From a virus (Duplodnaviria; Heunggongvirae; Uroviricota; Caudoviricetes), in the IMG/VR virus record IMGVR_UViG_2802429253_000006, positions 1 through 7,898 of that record: a DNA stretch of 7,898 bases. The stretch is one strand, 5' to 3'. The notes beneath the pieces were generated by a model that was given only the letters and a program-made list of their open reading frames with translations, searched no databases and had not been told where the DNA came from. Positions within the stretch are counted from its first letter, which is position 1. Each line of letters starts with the position of its first letter. A program made the position numbers and the translations under genes. Positions 1-6,112 of this stretch are shown here, in pieces.

Positions 1-397
1 TAAGGCAGTTACCCATTTTGAGGTATCCGCTGTCACCGGGAAAAATCATCGTACCGCCATAAAGGTTGGTAAAGTCCCAGCAAATGTTTGTCCCGTTATC
101 GTTCAGGTTAAGGCGCGCCATTGCGTTCCCTGGGCTGTCTATCCATTTTTTAAGGTATAGTTCGCAATACGCATCCTCAACACCTGCCGTCCTGTGAGTT
201 GAGCGAAGTTTTCGCCCAAATATAGCCCCGCTAGTTGGCAATACCTGCTGATACCATGCAGCAGACCAGTCATTAACGGTTTCATTTTTGCTGTCTACAT
301 ATGATTTTGTTACGTAGCTTCCTTGATCAGTTTTTAGTTTACTAACATCGAATTTTAGCGTTTTGATGTCATCAGGAATTACTGTTTTTGTAACCAT
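1..397 (-). CDS. Hypothetical protein, 5' part only (ORF runs off the left edge of the window); third gene of a minus-strand host operon
   Basis: ATG at complement 395-397, preceded by GGAG (complement of 405-408) with a 7-nt spacer. Hand translation of the minus strand is open to the window edge (MVTKTVIPDDIKTLKFDVSKLKTDQGSYVTKSYVDSKNETVNDW...). Absent from the ORF track only because it is incomplete. No family recognised. Confidence 0.5.
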   Translation of the reverse strand, partial: MVTKTVIPDDIKTLKFDVSKLKTDQGSYVTKSYVDSKNETVNDWSAAWYQQVLPTSGAIFGRKLRSTHRTAGVEDAYCELYLKKWIDSPGNAMARLNLNDNGTNICWDFTNLYGGTMIFPGDSGYLKMGNCL

Positions 398-409
398 TGT
401 CTTACTCCA

Positions 410-679
410 TTAAGCCCATGTCCTTACATGCTGATCTGTCGTAATGAAAGGCATTAAAGAAGATATGTTTTTACTGCTATCAACAATCCTCATGTTTACG
501 AAAAAACCACCGCGATCAATGCCTGTACATCTTTCGTTTTCTGGCTCCTCGTAATCGATAATGCAGCCAATAACATCAACAAGAACCCCGTTTTCTTCTT
601 CAAGACTGAACAGGCCACTGTCATATAAAATTGCGTTAAACTGTTCTCTGTTATCGAACCGTAATGTTATATCCCGCAT
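410..679 (-). CDS. Hypothetical small acidic protein (89 aa), middle gene of host operon
   Basis: ORF-track ORF. Its ATG (complement 677-679) overlaps the TAA stop of the upstream gene as TAATG, with AAGGAA 8 nt upstream, which indicates translational coupling. Only 10 nt separate its stop (410-412) from the RBS of the next gene. Confidence 0.5.
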   Translation of the reverse strand: MRDITLRFDNREQFNAILYDSGLFSLEEENGVLVDVIGCIIDYEEPENERCTGIDRGGFFVNMRIVDSSKNISSLMPFITTDQHVRTWA

Positions 680-1815
680 TATACGTATTCCTTAAGCTGC
701 GTATCTGACAATGCTCTGTTCCAGAAACGGAGATTTTTTATATGACCATTAAGGTGTCGTAATCCTGTCGTCGCTTGCCCCCCGATACGAATCACGGCAG
801 CTTCACGAATATATTTCCATACTGTTTTTGTTTCTGTGCTTATATGCTTATTTGCAAATGAGCATGTCATGCCGTCAGCCTTAACCCTGAATCCCATAAC
901 GAGATCTCTTACTCCGCATGACTCATATACACGTCGGTTAGCCCCGCCTATATCGCAATACGAATAACCGTCCTGACTGATAGTTCCAGAAGAACCAAAC
1001 CCCATAATAAATGGACCTCCGGACTGGTGATTTTCTGAATCAATGACACGCGGTGCAGCATTATGAGAAATAAACCAGTTTTTATGGACTTCCACCATGA
1101 ACGTAAAAGGCATGGTATACATATTTTTCATCAGCGGAAATTTACATAAATCTGATGCACGAGTCGCTGGCTCTGTTGTCGTTATGATGAAGGAAGTTGC
1201 ACAAGCACCGTACTCGAATTGCGGGGTGGTTACTTCTATCCAGTCACCTGTTGCAAAAGACCCCACAGCTCTGTCGGCTGCAATTTGCAGCTGCGTACCA
1301 ACCATTCCCCATTCTGGCAGACATTTCAGTGTTGCCTGAAAATATATCCACCCACTACCAGGGTCGATTTCAAAGTTTGCTGTTAATAGCTGGGCATTAC
1401 CACCCGTAATTTGTAGTTCATGAGTCTGTAATGACAAATAGGCGTCACAAAGAAAAGTGTATCCTTCCGAGTTATACCGTTCAAAACGGATACGTGCGCG
1501 AACATTGAGATCACTTCTTACCCTGAACGACGCGGTAACATACGGACCTTTACTGTACTGATCATCGCCAGTCACATCTATGCCTTTATTACCAGCAACT
1601 GTGCATATATTTCTCCCTGTTGTCGTTCCTGCTATATCGCTTCCTACCGTGAAACGTCCATATTTAAACTCAAATTCATCTGTTGATGATGTTACAGATA
1701 TACCACCGCTTTTATTCCACGCATCAGGATTAAAACTATTTACGAACATGTTTGTTCGCTGATTCTCTATCAGCAAACCATATTTTTCAAAACGAGGAAC
1801 GTTATTCCCTGCCAC
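679..1815 (-). pseudogene. 5'-truncated host gene, apparently disrupted by the prophage insertion; C-terminal LamG/concanavalin-like lectin-type domain, possibly phage tail-fibre-like
   Basis: The ORF-track start is a GTG at 1813-1815 with no Shine-Dalgarno sequence. The same frame stays open for three more codons into the Mu-like end and hits a stop at 1825-1827, so the true N-terminus is missing. The C-terminal motif ...HLNGHIKNLRFWNRALSDTQLKEYV is typical of LamG-type jelly-roll domains. Confidence 0.55.
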
Positions 1816-1820
1816 TGTAT

Positions 1821-1842
1821 TGATTCACGAGAAGTACGAAAA
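1821..1842 (+). other. attL MuA end-binding site L1
   Basis: tgattcacgagaagtacgaaaa matches the 22-bp MuA site consensus as I recall it (TGNTTCAYTNNAARYRCGAAAR) with one mismatch at position 9. It sits 5 bp inside the TG terminus. Confidence 0.7.
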
Positions 1843-1925
1843 AAACCGGGAGGATATTGGATTATTCGGGATTTGACGGGATTAGATTTGGTGGGGCTTG
1901 CAAGCCTGTAGAACAGATTTTAGCC

Positions 1926-1987: not shown

Positions 1988-2155
1988 GCAATTGCTTCAC
2001 GCATTATTTCAATTGCAGCTTCAAAAACGCTTCAAACCCGATAACAACCAGGCTTCTGGCGAATGACGTATATCAAAAACAGCTTTTGTTGTTTCAGTAT
2101 CTTACCCTCTAGGTTACTTGAGGGGAAGTGTGTGTTTTAGCTAGGTTCCTGGTTG

Positions 2156-2746
2156 TTATACGGCTTTTTTTACATCTTGTGGATCCTGCAAAGGAGCTAC
2201 AAGACTCTCCTGTTCATTAATCCCATACTTTGACAAAATCTCTTTGCGTTTCTCTTCAGGTAATGCATCTAGCATCATCAACGTCTGGATACTTTGCTGT
2301 GAAAATCCTATAAAGCTGTAAAGTTTCTGTTCATTAAACACAAGAGGCATTAACGCCAATAGTCCACCTTTGCTTAAGAGTTTCAGTGCCTTACGTGCTT
2401 CATCTGGTTCCAGTTCTTCGATCATATTGATTAAGGTTGTAGTTAATTTGTTTATCAGCTCCGAAGAATCCTGCTGCTCATTAGCTTGAGCAGCAGTGCC
2501 AGGAATAGACAGACCTAGGTGTGCAATAACTTGCTCTCGTTCTTTGGTGGGCATAGACATCACATCGTATTCAACTGCTTTCCCCCCCTTCACACCTTCC
2601 TTTTTTCGCTTTATCCAGCCTTGAACATTTGCCCGATAGTGAACACCAGCAACAGATCCTGGCATACCATCAGCAGCCATAATTTCTTGCGGCGTACACC
2701 AGATCGACTTTTTAGTATCACCATTTTCTATAAAGTCACTTTTCAA
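2156..2746 (-). CDS. c: Mu-type repressor c (Repc), 196 aa
   Basis: The protein (MKSDFIENGDTKKSIWCTPQEIMAADGMPGSVAGVHYRANVQGW...QDPQDVKKAV) is near-identical in length and sequence to the phage Mu repressor as I recall it. The start is TTG (complement 2744-2746) with AAGGA 8 nt upstream. It is transcribed leftward toward attL. Confidence 0.9.
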   Translation of the reverse strand: MKSDFIENGDTKKSIWCTPQEIMAADGMPGSVAGVHYRANVQGWIKRKKEGVKGGKAVEYDVMSMPTKEREQVIAHLGLSIPGTAAQANEQQDSSELINKLTTTLINMIEELEPDEARKALKLLSKGGLLALMPLVFNEQKLYSFIGFSQQSIQTLMMLDALPEEKRKEILSKYGINEQESLVAPLQDPQDVKKAV

Positions 2747-2771
2747 AATTTAAATCCTTATTTTTCAATTA

Positions 2772-2800
2772 ATTATGCAAAACACACCTAACAATACCAA
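2772..2800 (-). promoter_or_regulatory. Candidate repressor promoter Pc (minus strand: -35 TTGGTA = complement of 2795-2800, 17-bp spacer, -10 CATAAT = complement of 2772-2777)
   Basis: Sigma70-like hexamers on the minus strand about 30 nt upstream of the c RBS, back to back with the Pe candidate. Confidence 0.35.
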
Positions 2801-2808
2801 AAAGCAGC

Positions 2809-2837
2809 TTTACAAAAAGCTTTTCAGTATTTATCTT
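2809..2837 (+). promoter_or_regulatory. Candidate early promoter Pe (-35 TTTACA 2809-2814, 17-bp spacer, -10 TATCTT 2832-2837)
   Basis: Sigma70-like hexamers with 17-bp spacing. The predicted start near 2843-2845 is about 1028 bp from the prophage end, matching the Pe start position in Mu as I recall it. The palindrome AAAAGCTTTT lies in the spacer. Confidence 0.45.
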
Positions 2838-2914
2838 TTTGGCAAGTAAACTAAGTTTTTACACTTAGTTAAATTGCTAACTTTATAGATTACAAAACTT
2901 AGGAGGGTTTTTAA

Positions 2915-3142
2915 ATGTGTTCCAGCGAAAAGGTCCGTGATTGGCATCGTGCTGATGTGATTGCGGGACTTAAGAAAAGAAAGCTCTCTTTATCAGCTCT
3001 TTCTCGGCAATTTGGTTATGCGCCAACGACATTAGCTAATGCGCTAGAGCGGCACTGGCCAAAGGGCGAACAGATTATTGCTAACGCCCTTGAAACTAAA
3101 CCAGAAGTCATCTGGCCTAGCCGATATCAAGCAGGTGAATAA
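2915..3142 (+). CDS. ner: Ner DNA-binding transcriptional regulator (negative regulator of early transcription), 75 aa
   Basis: The protein ([51 protein letters not shown]...) matches Mu Ner as I recall it. AGGAGG RBS at 2901-2906. The TAA stop at 3140-3142 is one nucleotide before the A start. Confidence 0.9.
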
Positions 3143-3143
3143 T

Positions 3144-5135
3144 ATGGAACTTTGGGTGTCACCGAAAGAGTGTGCGAATCTTCCAGGCTTGCCGAAAACA
3201 TCAGCTGGTGTGATTTATGTCGCTAAGAAGCAAGGATGGCAAAACCGCACTAGGGCAGGTGTCAAAGGAGGTAAGGCAATTGAATACAATGCTAACTCTT
3301 TACCTGTTGAAGCGAAAGCGGCTTTATTGCTTAGGCAAGGAGAGATTGAAACAAGCCTGGGCCGTTTTGAAATCGCCCGCCCCACGCTGGAAGCCCACGA
3401 TTATGATCGTGAGGTGCTGTGGAGCAAATGGGATAACGCCAGCGATTCCCAGCGCAGACTTGCTGAAAAATGGTTGCCTGCAGTTCAGGCCGCAGACGAA
3501 ATGCTGAACCAGGGTATTTCAACAAAAACGGCTTTTGCGACCGTTGCAGGGCATTACCAGGTCAGTGCATCCACTTTGCGTGACAAGTATTACCAGGTAC
3601 AGAAGTTTGCGAAGCCTGACTGGGCGGCTGCGCTTGTTGATGGACGTGGTGCATCCCGTCGCAACGTTCACAAAAGTGAATTTGACGAGGATGCCTGGCA
3701 GTTTCTGATTGCAGATTATCTGCGACCGGAAAAGCCCGCCTTCCGCAAATGTTATGAGCGTCTGGAACTGGCAGCCCGCGAGCATGGCTGGAGTATTCCC
3801 TCCCGTGCCACGGCCTTTCGCCGGATTCAGCAACTGGACGAGGCAATGGTTGTTGCCTGTCGTGAAGGTGAACATGCACTGATGCATCTGATACCGGCAC
3901 AGCAGCGAACTGTGGAACACCTGGACGCCATGCAGTGGATCAACGGCGACGGTTATCTGCATAACGTCTTTGTACGCTGGTTTAACGGTGATGTGATCCG
4001 TCCGAAAACATGGTTCTGGCAGGATGTGAAAACCCGAAAAATTCTGGGCTGGCGCTGCGATGTGAGCGAGAACATTGATTCAATTCGCCTCTCGTTCATG
4101 GATGTTGTGACTCGCTACGGTATCCCGGAGGATTTTCACATCACCATTGATAACACCCGTGGTGCTGCGAATAAATGGCTGACGGGAGGCGCGCCCAATC
4201 GCTACCGCTTTAAGGTAAAAGAGGACGATCCAAAAGGACTGTTTTTACTGATGGGGGCGAAAATGCACTGGACAAGCGTTGTTGCCGGTAAAGGCTGGGG
4301 CCAGGCAAAACCTGTTGAACGTGCTTTCGGTGTTGGTGGGCTTGAGGAATACGTTGATAAGCATCCGGCACTGGCTGGCGCATATACGGGGCCAAATCCG
4401 CAGGCAAAACCTGATAACTATGGCGACCGCGCTGTTGATGCAGAGCTGTTTCTGAAAACCCTTGCCGAAGGTGTGGCGATGTTCAATGCCAGAACAGGCC
4501 GTGAAACAGAAATGTGCGGGGGCAAACTCTCGTTTGATGATGTTTTCGAGCGTGAATACGCCAGAACGATTGTGCGTAAGCCAACCGAAGAACAAAAACG
4601 GATGCTGTTACTGCCTGCCGAGGCGGTGAACGTTTCACGCAAAGGCGAGTTTACGCTTAAAGTTGGCGGCTCCCTTAAAGGCGCGAAAAACGTTTATTAC
4701 AACATGGCGTTAATGAATGCCGGAGTGAAAAAAGTTGTGGTCAGGTTTGATCCACAGCAGCTACACAGCACGGTTTATTGCTACACCCTGGACGGTCGGT
4801 TTATCTGTGAAGCGGAATGTCTGGCACCAGTTGCATTTAATGATGCTGCGGCAGGCCGTGAGTATCGTCGACGCCAGAAACAACTGAAATCTGCAACTAA
4901 AGCAGCCATTAAGGCGCAGAAGCAAATGGACGCGCTGGAAGTTGCTGAACTGCTGCCGCAGATAGCCGAACCAGCAGCGCCAGAATCAAGGGTTGTTGGT
5001 ATTTTCCGGCCTTCCGGTAACACGGTGCAGGTGAAATACCAGGAACCCGATGATGAATATGAAACTGATCGTGATGAATATCTGAATCACTCGCTGGATA
5101 TTCTGGAACAGAACAGACGTAAAAAAGCCATTTAA
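3144..5135 (+). CDS. A: MuA DDE transposase, 663 aa
   Basis: The N-terminus [32 protein letters not shown]... and the C-terminus ...[10 protein letters not shown] (the Mu transposase tail recognised by ClpX) are both present. From ATG 3144 the catalytic codons fall at the canonical positions: D269 (GAC 3948-3950, in NGDGY), D336 (GAT 4149-4151, in ITIDNT) and E392 (GAA 4317-4319, in PVERAF). The ORF track's start at 3078 is an in-frame extension that overlaps ner. Confidence 0.95.
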
Positions 5136-5173: not shown

Positions 5174-6112
5174 ATGAATATTTCTGATATTCGCGCAGGA
5201 CTGCGCACGCTTGTAGAAAGCGAAAAAACAACTTATGCGCAAATCGCCCGCGAATCTGGAGTTGCCGCAGGAACGTTAAGCGCGTTCGTGAATAACAAGT
5301 ACAACGGCGATAATGAGCGTGTTGCGCAGACGCTGGAACGCTGGCTGGAGAACTATCACCGCGCCGCAGAACTGCCAGAACCCCCTCGTTTTGTGGAAAC
5401 CAGAACAGCACGTCAAATCTGGACGAGTATGCGCTTTGCCAGCCTGACTGAAAGTATTTCTGTTATCTGCGGTAATCCAGGTGTGGGAAAAACTGAAGCA
5501 GCCCGCGAATTTCGTCGCACCAATAACAATGTCTGGATGATCACCATTACCCCATCCTGTGCCAGTGTTCTGGAATGCCTGACTGAACTGGCTTATGAAC
5601 TGGGAATGAATGACGCACCGCGCCGTAAGGGGCCACTCTCCCGCGCTTTGCGACGCCGCCTTGAAGGTACGCAGGGGCTGGTCATTATCGACGAAGCTGA
5701 TCATCTTGGCGCTGAGGTTCTGGAAGAACTCCGCCTGTTACAGGAATCCGCCCGTATTGGTCTTGTTCTGATGGGGAATCACCGTGTTTATTCAAACATG
5801 ACCGGTGGTAACAGAACGGTTGAATTTGCCCGCCTGTTTTCCCGTATTGCAAAGCGGACGGCAATTAATAAAACCAAAATTGACGATGTAAAAGCCATTG
5901 CGGATGCCTGGCAAATTACCGGCGAAAACGAGCGGGAATTATTACAGCAGATTGCTCAAAAACCAGGTGCGCTTCGCATCCTGAACCACTCGCTGCGCCT
6001 TGCGGCCATGACCGCCCACGGTAAAGGTGAACGTGTTAATGAAGATTATCTGCGTCAGGCTTTCCGTGAATTAGACCTGGACGTTGATATTTCAACGCTG
6101 CTGCGTAATTAA
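5174..6112 (+). CDS. B: MuB ATP-dependent target-DNA activator (AAA+ ATPase), 312 aa
   Basis: 312 aa with Walker A GNPGVGKT and Walker B LVIIDEAD. The N-terminus MNISDIRAGLRTLVESEKTTYAQIARESGVAAGTLSAFVNNKY contains an HTH and matches Mu B as I recall it. RBS ACGAGG at 5160-5165. Confidence 0.95.
   Translation: MNISDIRAGLRTLVESEKTTYAQIARESGVAAGTLSAFVNNKYNGDNERVAQTLERWLENYHRAAELPEPPRFVETRTARQIWTSMRFASLTESISVICGNPGVGKTEAAREFRRTNNNVWMITITPSCASVLECLTELAYELGMNDAPRRKGPLSRALRRRLEGTQGLVIIDEADHLGAEVLEELRLLQESARIGLVLMGNHRVYSNMTGGNRTVEFARLFSRIAKRTAINKTKIDDVKAIADAWQITGENERELLQQIAQKPGALRILNHSLRLAAMTAHGKGERVNEDYLRQAFRELDLDVDISTLLRN

What the first reader, a model, noticed from the sequence alone, without database searches (positions are those of the whole stretch)
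2747..2914. Back-to-back Pc/Pe switch region with a perfect AAAAGCTTTT palindrome and a CTTTT repeat cluster
The 168-bp c-ner intergenic region has divergent sigma70-like promoters: Pe candidate (-35 TTTACA 2809-2814, -10 TATCTT 2832-2837) and Pc candidate on the minus strand (-35 at 2795-2800, -10 at 2772-2777). There are several CTTT(T) motifs in both orientations, a 10-bp palindrome inside the Pe spacer, and an IHF-like site at 2764-2776. This fits the Mu lysis-lysogeny switch, where repressor-bound operators overlap Pe and double as the transposition enhancer bound by the MuA N-terminal domain. The exact operator layout could differ from Mu and set the immunity specificity.
Basis: partly seen in the sequence, partly recalled or inferred. 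Interest (0 to 1): 0.45.

Follow-up and report, generated by a model that had tools for sequence, protein, structure and literature searches.

The report
Phage Mu-type operator and enhancer region
This is the well-studied lysis/lysogeny control region of a phage Mu-like prophage in E. coli, about 95% identical to Mu across its functional sites, so it is ordinary and most likely has Mu's own immunity.

Summary
The window holds the left end of a Mu-like prophage, about 90% identical to Mu, with its left end at 1816. The region 2747-2914 is the homologue of Mu's c-ner control region. The CTTTTYNR cluster is non-random, but two of its five motifs (operator O1, 2708-2746) lie outside the interval, in the first codons of c. 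The palindrome alone and the IHF-like match alone are within chance. The proposed leftward Pc (2772-2800) lies in a hypervariable 27-bp patch and occurs in only 2 of 14 loci. Mu's own second annotated promoter maps to 2879-2917, right of Pe, so "back-to-back" is not supported. The repressor DNA-binding domain, Ner and the transposase N-terminus are nearly identical to Mu's and unlike D108's, so a new immunity specificity is unlikely. Verdict: already known, low interest.

The parts
1816..1860 (+). Left end of the Mu-like prophage (TGTATTGATTCAC...). It fixes the distance of the control region from the end at about 0.9-1.1 kb.
   Evidence: Alignment with Mu bases 1-345 begins at window 1816. 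E. coli matches to the Mu part begin at 1811-1816.
2156..2746 (-). c repressor gene, 196 aa, TTG start. The DNA-binding domain (residues 13-80) is nearly invariant.
   Evidence: ORF. 91% aa identity to Mu c. Pfam HTH_Tnp_Mu_1, E=2e-52.
2706..2754 (.). O1 homologue. Motifs: CTTTTTAG 2708-2715, degenerate ATTTTCTA 2723-2730, and CTTTTCAA 2739-2746. The last one is c codons 1-3, including the TTG start.
   Evidence: Motif scan. Flanking motifs vary in 0-1 columns across 14 loci, while the middle segment varies in 9 of 18. Mu has motifs at 891, 906 and 922.
2755..2759 (-). c ribosome-binding site (AAGGA on the minus strand).
   Evidence: Homologous to the RBS annotated at Mu 938..942. Sequence read.
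2763..2775 (+). IHF-site homologue TTTCAATTAATTA. Mu has TATCAACGCGTTA, a perfect WATCAANNNNTTR.
   Evidence: One-mismatch match. Aligned with the Mu site. TCAA is invariant, and 6 of 13 columns vary.
2770..2796 (.). Hypervariable 27-bp patch between the IHF core and O2, at -74 to -48 relative to the Pe start. Its length is conserved but its sequence is not.
   Evidence: 21 of 27 columns vary. 16 of 27 positions differ from Mu, against 38 of 197 at c third-codon positions, p=3e-5. It is typically about 4-8 times more divergent per site than the rest, and higher in nearly all pairs.
2772..2800 (-). It is lineage-specific and probably not the conserved repressor promoter.
   Evidence: Found in the window and in STEC346 only, 2 of 14 loci. 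Absent from Mu.
2797..2842 (.). O2 homologue: four repressor motifs in two-fold symmetry about 2819/2820. They are CCAAAAAG 2797-2804, ACAAAAAG 2812-2819, CTTTTCAG 2820-2827 and CTTTTTGG 2835-2842. Together they cover the Pe -35, spacer and -10.
   Evidence: (I11, I3). Conserved with Mu 981-1026. CTTTTCAGTA is invariant in 14 loci.
2809..2844 (+). Early promoter Pe: -35 TTTACA 2809-2814, -10 TATCTT 2832-2837, predicted start at A 2844 (homologue of Mu 1028).
   Evidence: The Mu promoter feature 991..1028 maps here with an offset of 1816. Both hexamers are invariant in 14 loci. PMC3820752 reports 5'-RACE for Mu Pe.
2815..2824 (.). AAAAGCTTTT palindrome. It is the two inner O2 motifs abutting and contains a HindIII site.
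   Evidence: Conserved in Mu. 2 of 10 columns vary; some relatives have AAAAGACTTTT or AAAAGGCTTTT instead.
2845..2874 (.). Ner operator homologue: AGTAAACTAAGT, spacer TTTTAC, ACTTAGTTAAAT. These are two 12-bp inverted repeats 6 bp apart, beginning at +2 of Pe.
   Evidence: Inverted repeat I1, 2839-2856 with 2863-2880. 26 of 30 columns invariant. The assignment to Ner is from my recollection of Tolias & DuBow 1986.
2879..2917 (-). Homologue of Mu's second annotated promoter (Mu 1063..1101), taken to be the repressor promoter PcM reading leftward across the Ner operator, Pe and O2. It matches the sigma-70 consensus poorly.
   Evidence: GenBank feature. 38 of 40 columns in 2875-2914 are invariant. 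The direction and the name are inferred.
2915..3142 (+). ner gene (75 aa). Its RBS is AGGAGG at 2901-2906.
   Evidence: 97% identity to Mu Ner. Pfam HTH_35. RBS homologous to Mu 1085..1090.
3144..5135 (+). MuA transposase (663 aa). Its N-terminal domain is homologous to the repressor DNA-binding domain.
   Evidence: Pfam DDE_2, HTH_Tnp_Mu_1, HTH_Tnp_Mu_2 and Mu-transpos_C. First 57 aa identical to MuA. 41% identity to c residues 15-78.

Best explanation
The interval is the right-hand two thirds of a phage Mu-type operator/enhancer. The proposed mechanism below is taken from Mu by homology; no binding or transcription was measured here.

1. Repressor c binds CTTTTYNR motifs grouped as O1 (2708-2746, inside its own first codons) and O2 (2797-2842).
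2. O2 is a two-fold symmetric set of four motifs lying over the -35, spacer and -10 of Pe, so bound repressor shuts off ner-A-B transcription.
3. An IHF-type bend site (2763-2775) in the roughly 50-bp O1-O2 spacer brings the two clusters together.
4. After induction, Pe fires from about 2844. Ner then binds the inverted repeat at 2845-2874, just downstream, and damps both Pe and the leftward repressor promoter. That promoter, as in Mu, most likely lies to the right of Pe (about 2879-2917), so the two transcripts overlap rather than diverge back-to-back.
5. The same O1-IHF-O2 unit serves as the transposition enhancer, bound by the N-terminal domain of MuA, a paralogue of the repressor DNA-binding domain. 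Repressor and transposase therefore compete for it.

Immunity specificity is predicted to be that of Mu.
For: - The c-ner-A region is 90% identical to Mu, and 2795-2914 is 95% identical.
- The Mu left end lies at 1816.
- Mu's GenBank features for Pe, the second promoter and the RBSs map onto the window with a constant offset of 1816.
- The CTTTTYNR cluster is non-random.
- In 14 Mu-type loci the variable columns are: Pe hexamers 0 of 12, CTTTTCAGTA 0 of 10, the O1 outer motifs 0-1, the Ner operator 4 of 30, and the 40 bp before ner 2 of 40. The intervening patch has 21 of 27.
- The intergenic region right of the patch is more conserved than c third-codon positions: 6 of 118 against 38 of 197, p=3e-4.
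- c residues 13-80 are nearly invariant, Ner is 97% identical and MuA residues 1-57 are 100% identical to Mu.
- c and MuA share the HTH_Tnp_Mu_1 domain.
- Literature: the enhancer overlaps O1-O3 and consists of two MuA-binding clusters separated by an IHF site (PMC3145075). The Pe start and hexamer scores are in PMC3820752. Overlapping pC/pE promoters are described as the usual configuration in these phages, Mu included (PMC9936078).
Against: - Nothing here measures binding or transcription. All function is carried over by homology.
- The IHF core has an A-to-T change, and close relatives have 1-2 mismatches. IHF dependence could be weaker.
- The middle O1 motif of Mu is degenerate here.
- The placement of PcM rests on an ambiguously worded GenBank feature and on my recollection of Krause & Higgins 1986. 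The primary papers were not available.
- That stretch has no sigma-70 match of 8/12 or better.
- PMC3820752 simply calls PcM and Pe 'divergent'.
Confidence: 0.9

Rival explanations
1. One reading: truly back-to-back promoters, with the repressor promoter at TTGGTA-17-CATAAT (2800..2772) starting near 2765. This gives a roughly 20-nt leader that still contains the c RBS. The -35 overlaps the leftmost O2 motif, allowing autoregulation, and the -10 overlaps the IHF core.
For: It is a 9/12 consensus match with a 17-bp spacer, one of only two such hits in 2600-3000. The geometry relative to the RBS at 2755-2759 and the TTG at 2746 is workable. More than one repressor promoter has been reported for Mu (Goosen 1984, as cited in PMC9936078 and PMC3820752).
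Against: It is present in 2 of 14 loci only. Its -10 lies in the hypervariable patch, and Mu has ATTAAC there. About 0.8 such hits are expected by chance in a region of this size and composition. The invariant sequence that would mark a conserved promoter lies right of Pe instead.
Confidence: 0.1
2. A Mu-like switch with altered operator layout that confers a new immunity specificity, heteroimmune to Mu as D108 is.
For: Differences from Mu: a 27-bp replaced patch, an O1-O2 spacer 1 bp shorter, a degenerate middle O1 motif, a T45I change in the repressor DNA-binding domain, and 9% overall divergence of c.
Against: The five exact CTTTTYNR motifs (two in O1, three in O2) and their spacing are kept. 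Repressor residues 13-80 differ from Mu at only 3 positions. The changes fall in the spacer, not in the motifs. The truly heteroimmune D108 has 29% identical c, 53% identical Ner and an unrelated operator sequence (PMC4406740).
Confidence: 0.05
3. An A+T-rich intergenic spacer whose motifs are chance products of its composition.
For: The palindrome, bare CTTTT and the one-mismatch IHF match are each within or near chance.
Against: The CTTTTYNR clustering beats composition-matched shuffles, 4 of 2000. Conservation is far above synonymous-site levels. The region is homologous to an experimentally dissected region of Mu.
Confidence: 0.01

Closest known systems
Phage Mu operator / transpositional enhancer (O1-IHF-O2-O3 with Pe, PcM and the Ner operator; Mu bases about 890-1100, AF083977)
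   Same: Same position between c and ner, about 1 kb from the left end. Identical Pe hexamers and spacer length. The same four-motif O2 dyad with the AAAAGCTTTT centre. The same outer O1 motifs. The same Ner inverted repeat. An identical 40 bp before ner. About 95% identity over 2795-2914.
   Different: IHF core TTTCAA instead of TATCAA. The middle O1 motif is lost (ATTTTCTA against CTTTTCTA). 16 of 27 bases are changed in the patch at 2770-2796. The O1-O2 spacer is 1 bp shorter. There are two changes in the left Ner half-site. A promoter-like TTGGTA-17-CATAAT is present here. The Mu clade's TTGAAA-18-AATAAT inside O1 is absent.
D108 / SfMu immunity region
   Same: Same gene order (c leftward, ner-A-B rightward) and the same kind of c/Ner switch next to a Mu-type left end (PMC4406740).
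   Different: No detectable DNA similarity in the control region. c is 29% and Ner 53% identical to the window's proteins. D108 has no CTTTTYNR cluster.
Lambda OR (PR/PRM with cI and Cro)
   Same: A repressor and a small second regulator act on one compact region between divergently oriented genes. Operators overlap the lytic promoter.
   Different: Lambda's promoters really are back-to-back. In Mu-type phages the repressor promoter appears to lie beyond the lytic start, so the transcripts overlap. The Mu operator also works as a transposition enhancer and needs an IHF bend. This comparison is from general knowledge and was not tested here.

Membership tests
Mu-type operator/enhancer | Lies between a leftward Mu-type repressor gene (HTH_Tnp_Mu_1) and a rightward ner-A-B operon, about 1 kb from a Mu left end | tested here: met
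   ORFs. Pfam. Left end at 1816. Homology to Mu.
Mu-type operator/enhancer | Two clusters of the repressor consensus CTTTTPyNPu (O1 and O2) | tested here: met
   Five exact motifs in 135 bp; 0 of 1000 whole-window shuffles and 4 of 2000 local shuffles reach this. Aligned with the Mu motifs. The consensus itself is from my recollection of Krause & Higgins 1986.
Mu-type operator/enhancer | IHF consensus site in the O1-O2 spacer | tested here: inconclusive
   TTTCAATTAATTA has one mismatch at the homologous position. Matches of this quality are at chance frequency. The Mu clade has a perfect site.
Mu-type operator/enhancer | Early promoter Pe buried in O2 | tested here: met
   TTTACA-17-TATCTT is identical to Mu and invariant in 14 loci. 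It maps to the Mu feature 991..1028.
Mu-type operator/enhancer | Ner operator (two 12-bp inverted repeats, 6-bp spacer) just downstream of the Pe start | tested here: met
   Inverted repeat I1. 26 of 30 columns invariant.
Mu-type operator/enhancer | Repressor promoter PcM to the right of Pe, overlapping O3 | tested here: inconclusive
   The sequence homologous to the Mu feature 1063..1101 is invariant. It has no good consensus match, and its direction and name could not be verified.
Mu-type operator/enhancer | Transposase carries an N-terminal domain paralogous to the repressor DNA-binding domain, which binds the same sites | tested here: met
   Both proteins hit HTH_Tnp_Mu_1. 41% identity between them. 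MuA residues 1-57 identical to Mu. Binding itself was not tested.
Mu-type operator/enhancer | Physical binding of repressor, IHF, Ner and MuA, and mapped transcription starts | not testable with these tools
   Needs footprinting and 5'-end mapping.
D108-type immunity region | D108-like c and Ner proteins and D108 operator sequence | tested here: not met
   29% and 53% protein identity. No DNA match.
Back-to-back divergent promoter pair (lambda PR/PRM type) | A conserved leftward promoter upstream of, and not overlapping, the rightward transcript | tested here: not met
   The candidate at 2800..2772 occurs in 2 of 14 loci and is absent from Mu.

The most novel reading that the evidence does not exclude
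The 27-bp patch between the IHF core and O2 (2770-2796, at -74 to -48 of Pe) is a true hotspot of diversification in Mu-type prophages. It would tune the switch without changing immunity. It could do so by altering the upstream (UP-element / alpha-CTD) region of Pe and the quality of the IHF site. Or, in this sublineage, it could create a second, IHF-occluded, repressor-autoregulated c promoter (TTGGTA-17-CATAAT) with a short leader.
Probability: 0.12. Interest if true: 0.3.

Novelty: already known. Interest (0 to 1): 0.1.

Why it matters
It matters little beyond annotation. It identifies the prophage as Mu-immunity type, places Pe, O1/O2, the IHF site and the Ner operator in this allele, and corrects the placement of the repressor promoter. 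The one mildly useful by-product is a natural-variation map of the Mu operator. It shows which bases are invariant (motifs, Pe, the Ner operator, the stretch before ner) and that a 27-bp spacer of fixed length is free or even driven to vary. That map could guide mutational studies of Pe activation and enhancer geometry.

Tried and rejected
- An exact-match scan of GTDB genomes with the 42-bp patch sequence, and a c-protein scan of the same collection, both found nothing. The exact source strain was not identified.
- IMG/VR and metagenome scans added only c loci of 90% identity or more from the same two clades, so no deeper phylogenetic footprint was possible.
- The primary Mu operator papers were not in the library: Krause & Higgins 1986, van Rijn 1988, Krause 1983, the Harshey review and EMBO J papers. 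Several text searches gave only secondary statements. The exact O1-O3 and PcM coordinates for Mu therefore rest on the GenBank features and my memory.
- A one-mismatch search for CTTTTYNR is uninformative (144 hits), so O3 could not be delimited by motif.
- An Rfam scan of the window found nothing.
- I considered and rejected a new immunity specificity and a chance A+T-rich spacer (see rival explanations).

Full report
**What the window is**

The window carries the left end of a Mu-like prophage.
- The stretch 2119-3200 is 90.3% identical to phage Mu (AF083977) across c, ner and the start of A.
- The Mu left-end sequence TGTATTGATTCAC begins at window 1816.
- The genes are c at 2156-2746 (minus strand), ner at 2915-3142, A at 3144-5135 and B at 5174-6112.
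- Pfam confirms a Mu-type repressor (HTH_Tnp_Mu_1), Ner (HTH_35) and a complete Mu transposase.
- Right of a 1-bp indel near 2754/2755, Mu coordinate equals window coordinate minus 1816.

**Checking the observation**

- The consensus scan finds exactly two promoter-like sites in 2600-3000. They are TTTACA-17-TATCTT on the plus strand and TTGGTA-17-CATAAT on the minus strand. Shuffles give 0.8.
- CTTTTYNR is the repressor consensus as I recall it from Krause & Higgins 1986. It occurs 8 times in the window, which equals chance. But five copies fall within 135 bp. No whole-window shuffle out of 1000 reaches that, and only 4 of 2000 composition-matched local shuffles do.
- The 10-bp palindrome on its own is not unusual; 40% of shuffles of the region contain one.
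- A one-mismatch IHF match is not unusual either: 8 found against 10.4 expected.

**Anatomy, by alignment with Mu and 12 other Mu-type loci**

Reading from left to right:
- *O1.* It consists of CTTTTTAG at 2708, a degenerate ATTTTCTA at 2723 and CTTTTCAA at 2739. It lies inside the first 13 codons of c. The last motif is the TTG-AAA-AGT start of c itself. Older Mu records started c at an ATG 66 bp further in, which is why O1 used to look intergenic.
- *IHF site.* The window has TTTCAATTAATTA at 2763-2775, where Mu has a perfect TATCAACGCGTTA.
- *Variable patch.* At 2770-2796, 21 of 27 columns vary.
- *O2.* At 2797-2842, four motifs are arranged with exact two-fold symmetry about 2819/2820. The palindrome is simply the two inner motifs abutting. 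O2 covers the Pe -35, spacer and -10.
- *Pe.* Its hexamers are invariant in all 14 loci. They match the published description of Mu Pe: 5/6 and 4/6 matches, with the start at an A mapped by 5'-RACE (PMC3820752). The homologous A is window 2844.
- *Ner operator.* AGTAAACTAAGT, spacer TTTTAC, ACTTAGTTAAAT at 2845-2874 (I1).
- *The last 40 bp before ner.* Only 2 of 40 columns vary.

Right of the patch, the intergenic region differs from Mu at 6 of 118 positions. The third-codon positions of c differ at 38 of 197 (p=3e-4). The region is therefore under strong constraint.

**Where the repressor promoter is**

- It exists only in the window and its closest relative STEC346, 2 of 14 loci. Mu has ATTAAC at that place, and the scan finds nothing there in Mu.
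- The Mu GenBank record annotates a second promoter at 1063..1101, 'part of Ner binding site'. That is window 2879-2917, in the invariant stretch right of Pe.
- This agrees with my recollection that PcM overlaps O3, to the right of O2.
- It also agrees with a secondary statement that overlapping pC/pE promoters are the usual configuration in these phages, Mu included (PMC9936078).
- I could not read the primary papers. That stretch is a poor consensus match, so this point stays inferred. PMC3820752 simply calls the two promoters divergent.
- The 'back-to-back' label is therefore not supported, but it is not formally excluded for this sublineage.

**Immunity and enhancer**

- Repressor residues 13-80 differ from Mu at three positions. 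One of them, T45I, is shared only with STEC346.
- Ner is 97% identical to Mu's. MuA residues 1-57 are identical.
- c residues 15-78 and the MuA N-terminus are 41% identical and share one Pfam domain. This is the basis for repressor and transposase using the same sites.
- A review states that the enhancer overlaps O1-O3 and consists of two MuA-binding clusters separated by the IHF site (PMC3145075).
Its c is 29% identical and its Ner 53% identical, and its control-region sequence is unrelated (PMC4406740).
- The window is therefore Mu-immunity type. The differences from Mu lie in spacers, not in recognition motifs.

**The one unexplained feature**

- The 27-bp patch differs from Mu at 16 of 27 positions, against 19% at synonymous-type sites (p=3e-5).
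- In nearly all pairwise comparisons it is more divergent per site than the other 204 columns, typically about 4-8 times, even between close relatives. It contains no indels.
- It spans -74 to -48 of Pe.
- It may be a recombination scar, an unconstrained spacer of fixed length, or a tuning element. I could not decide between these.

**Verdict**

This is a correctly spotted but already well-known element: the Mu operator/enhancer in a slightly diverged allele.

Noticed in passing
window 1-1815, junction at 1815/1816: The DNA left of the Mu end is E. coli lambdoid-prophage side-tail-fibre sequence. It is 97-98% identical to many E. coli chromosomes and to phage PhiR47_1, and is uninterrupted through position 1815 in those relatives. 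The Mu-like prophage is therefore inserted inside the tail-fibre gene (ORF 679-1815, minus strand, truncated at its 5' end) of another prophage. The host is E. coli.
   Followed up: partly
window 2770-2796: A hypervariable 27-bp patch of conserved length between the IHF core and O2. It is more divergent per site than its surroundings in nearly all pairwise comparisons of 14 loci, typically about 4-8 times, and exceeds synonymous-site divergence.
   Followed up: partly
L001 (Mu) 900-929, equivalent to window 2717-2746: The Mu-clade sequences carry a strong leftward promoter-like site, TTGAAA-18-(A/G)A(T/C)AAT (9-10 of 12), inside O1 and c codons 1-10. It would start downstream of the TTG start codon. 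It is absent from the window clade, where the -10 reads TGGTGA.
   Followed up: no
window 2739-2746: The rightmost O1 repressor motif, CTTTTCAA, is the reverse complement of the first codons of c (TTG AAA AG), so the repressor's own start codon lies in its operator. c residues 4-12 are the variable part of the protein and coincide with the variable middle of O1.
   Followed up: partly
L020 (metagenome contig OEPF01000002), aligned to window 2690-2822: This contig matches Mu exactly up to the AAGCTT (HindIII) site in the palindrome and then switches to unrelated sequence. That is what a cloned Mu c-to-HindIII fragment in an engineered strain or vector would look like.
   Followed up: no
window 2611-2613 (c codon 45): The repressor DNA-binding domain carries Ile45 where Mu and most relatives have Thr. 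The change is shared only with E. coli STEC346.
   Followed up: no
window 3078-5135: The mechanical ORF list starts the transposase ORF at a TTG at 3078, overlapping ner. Homology with MuA puts the real start at the ATG at 3144 (MELWVSPKE), giving 663 aa.
   Followed up: yes
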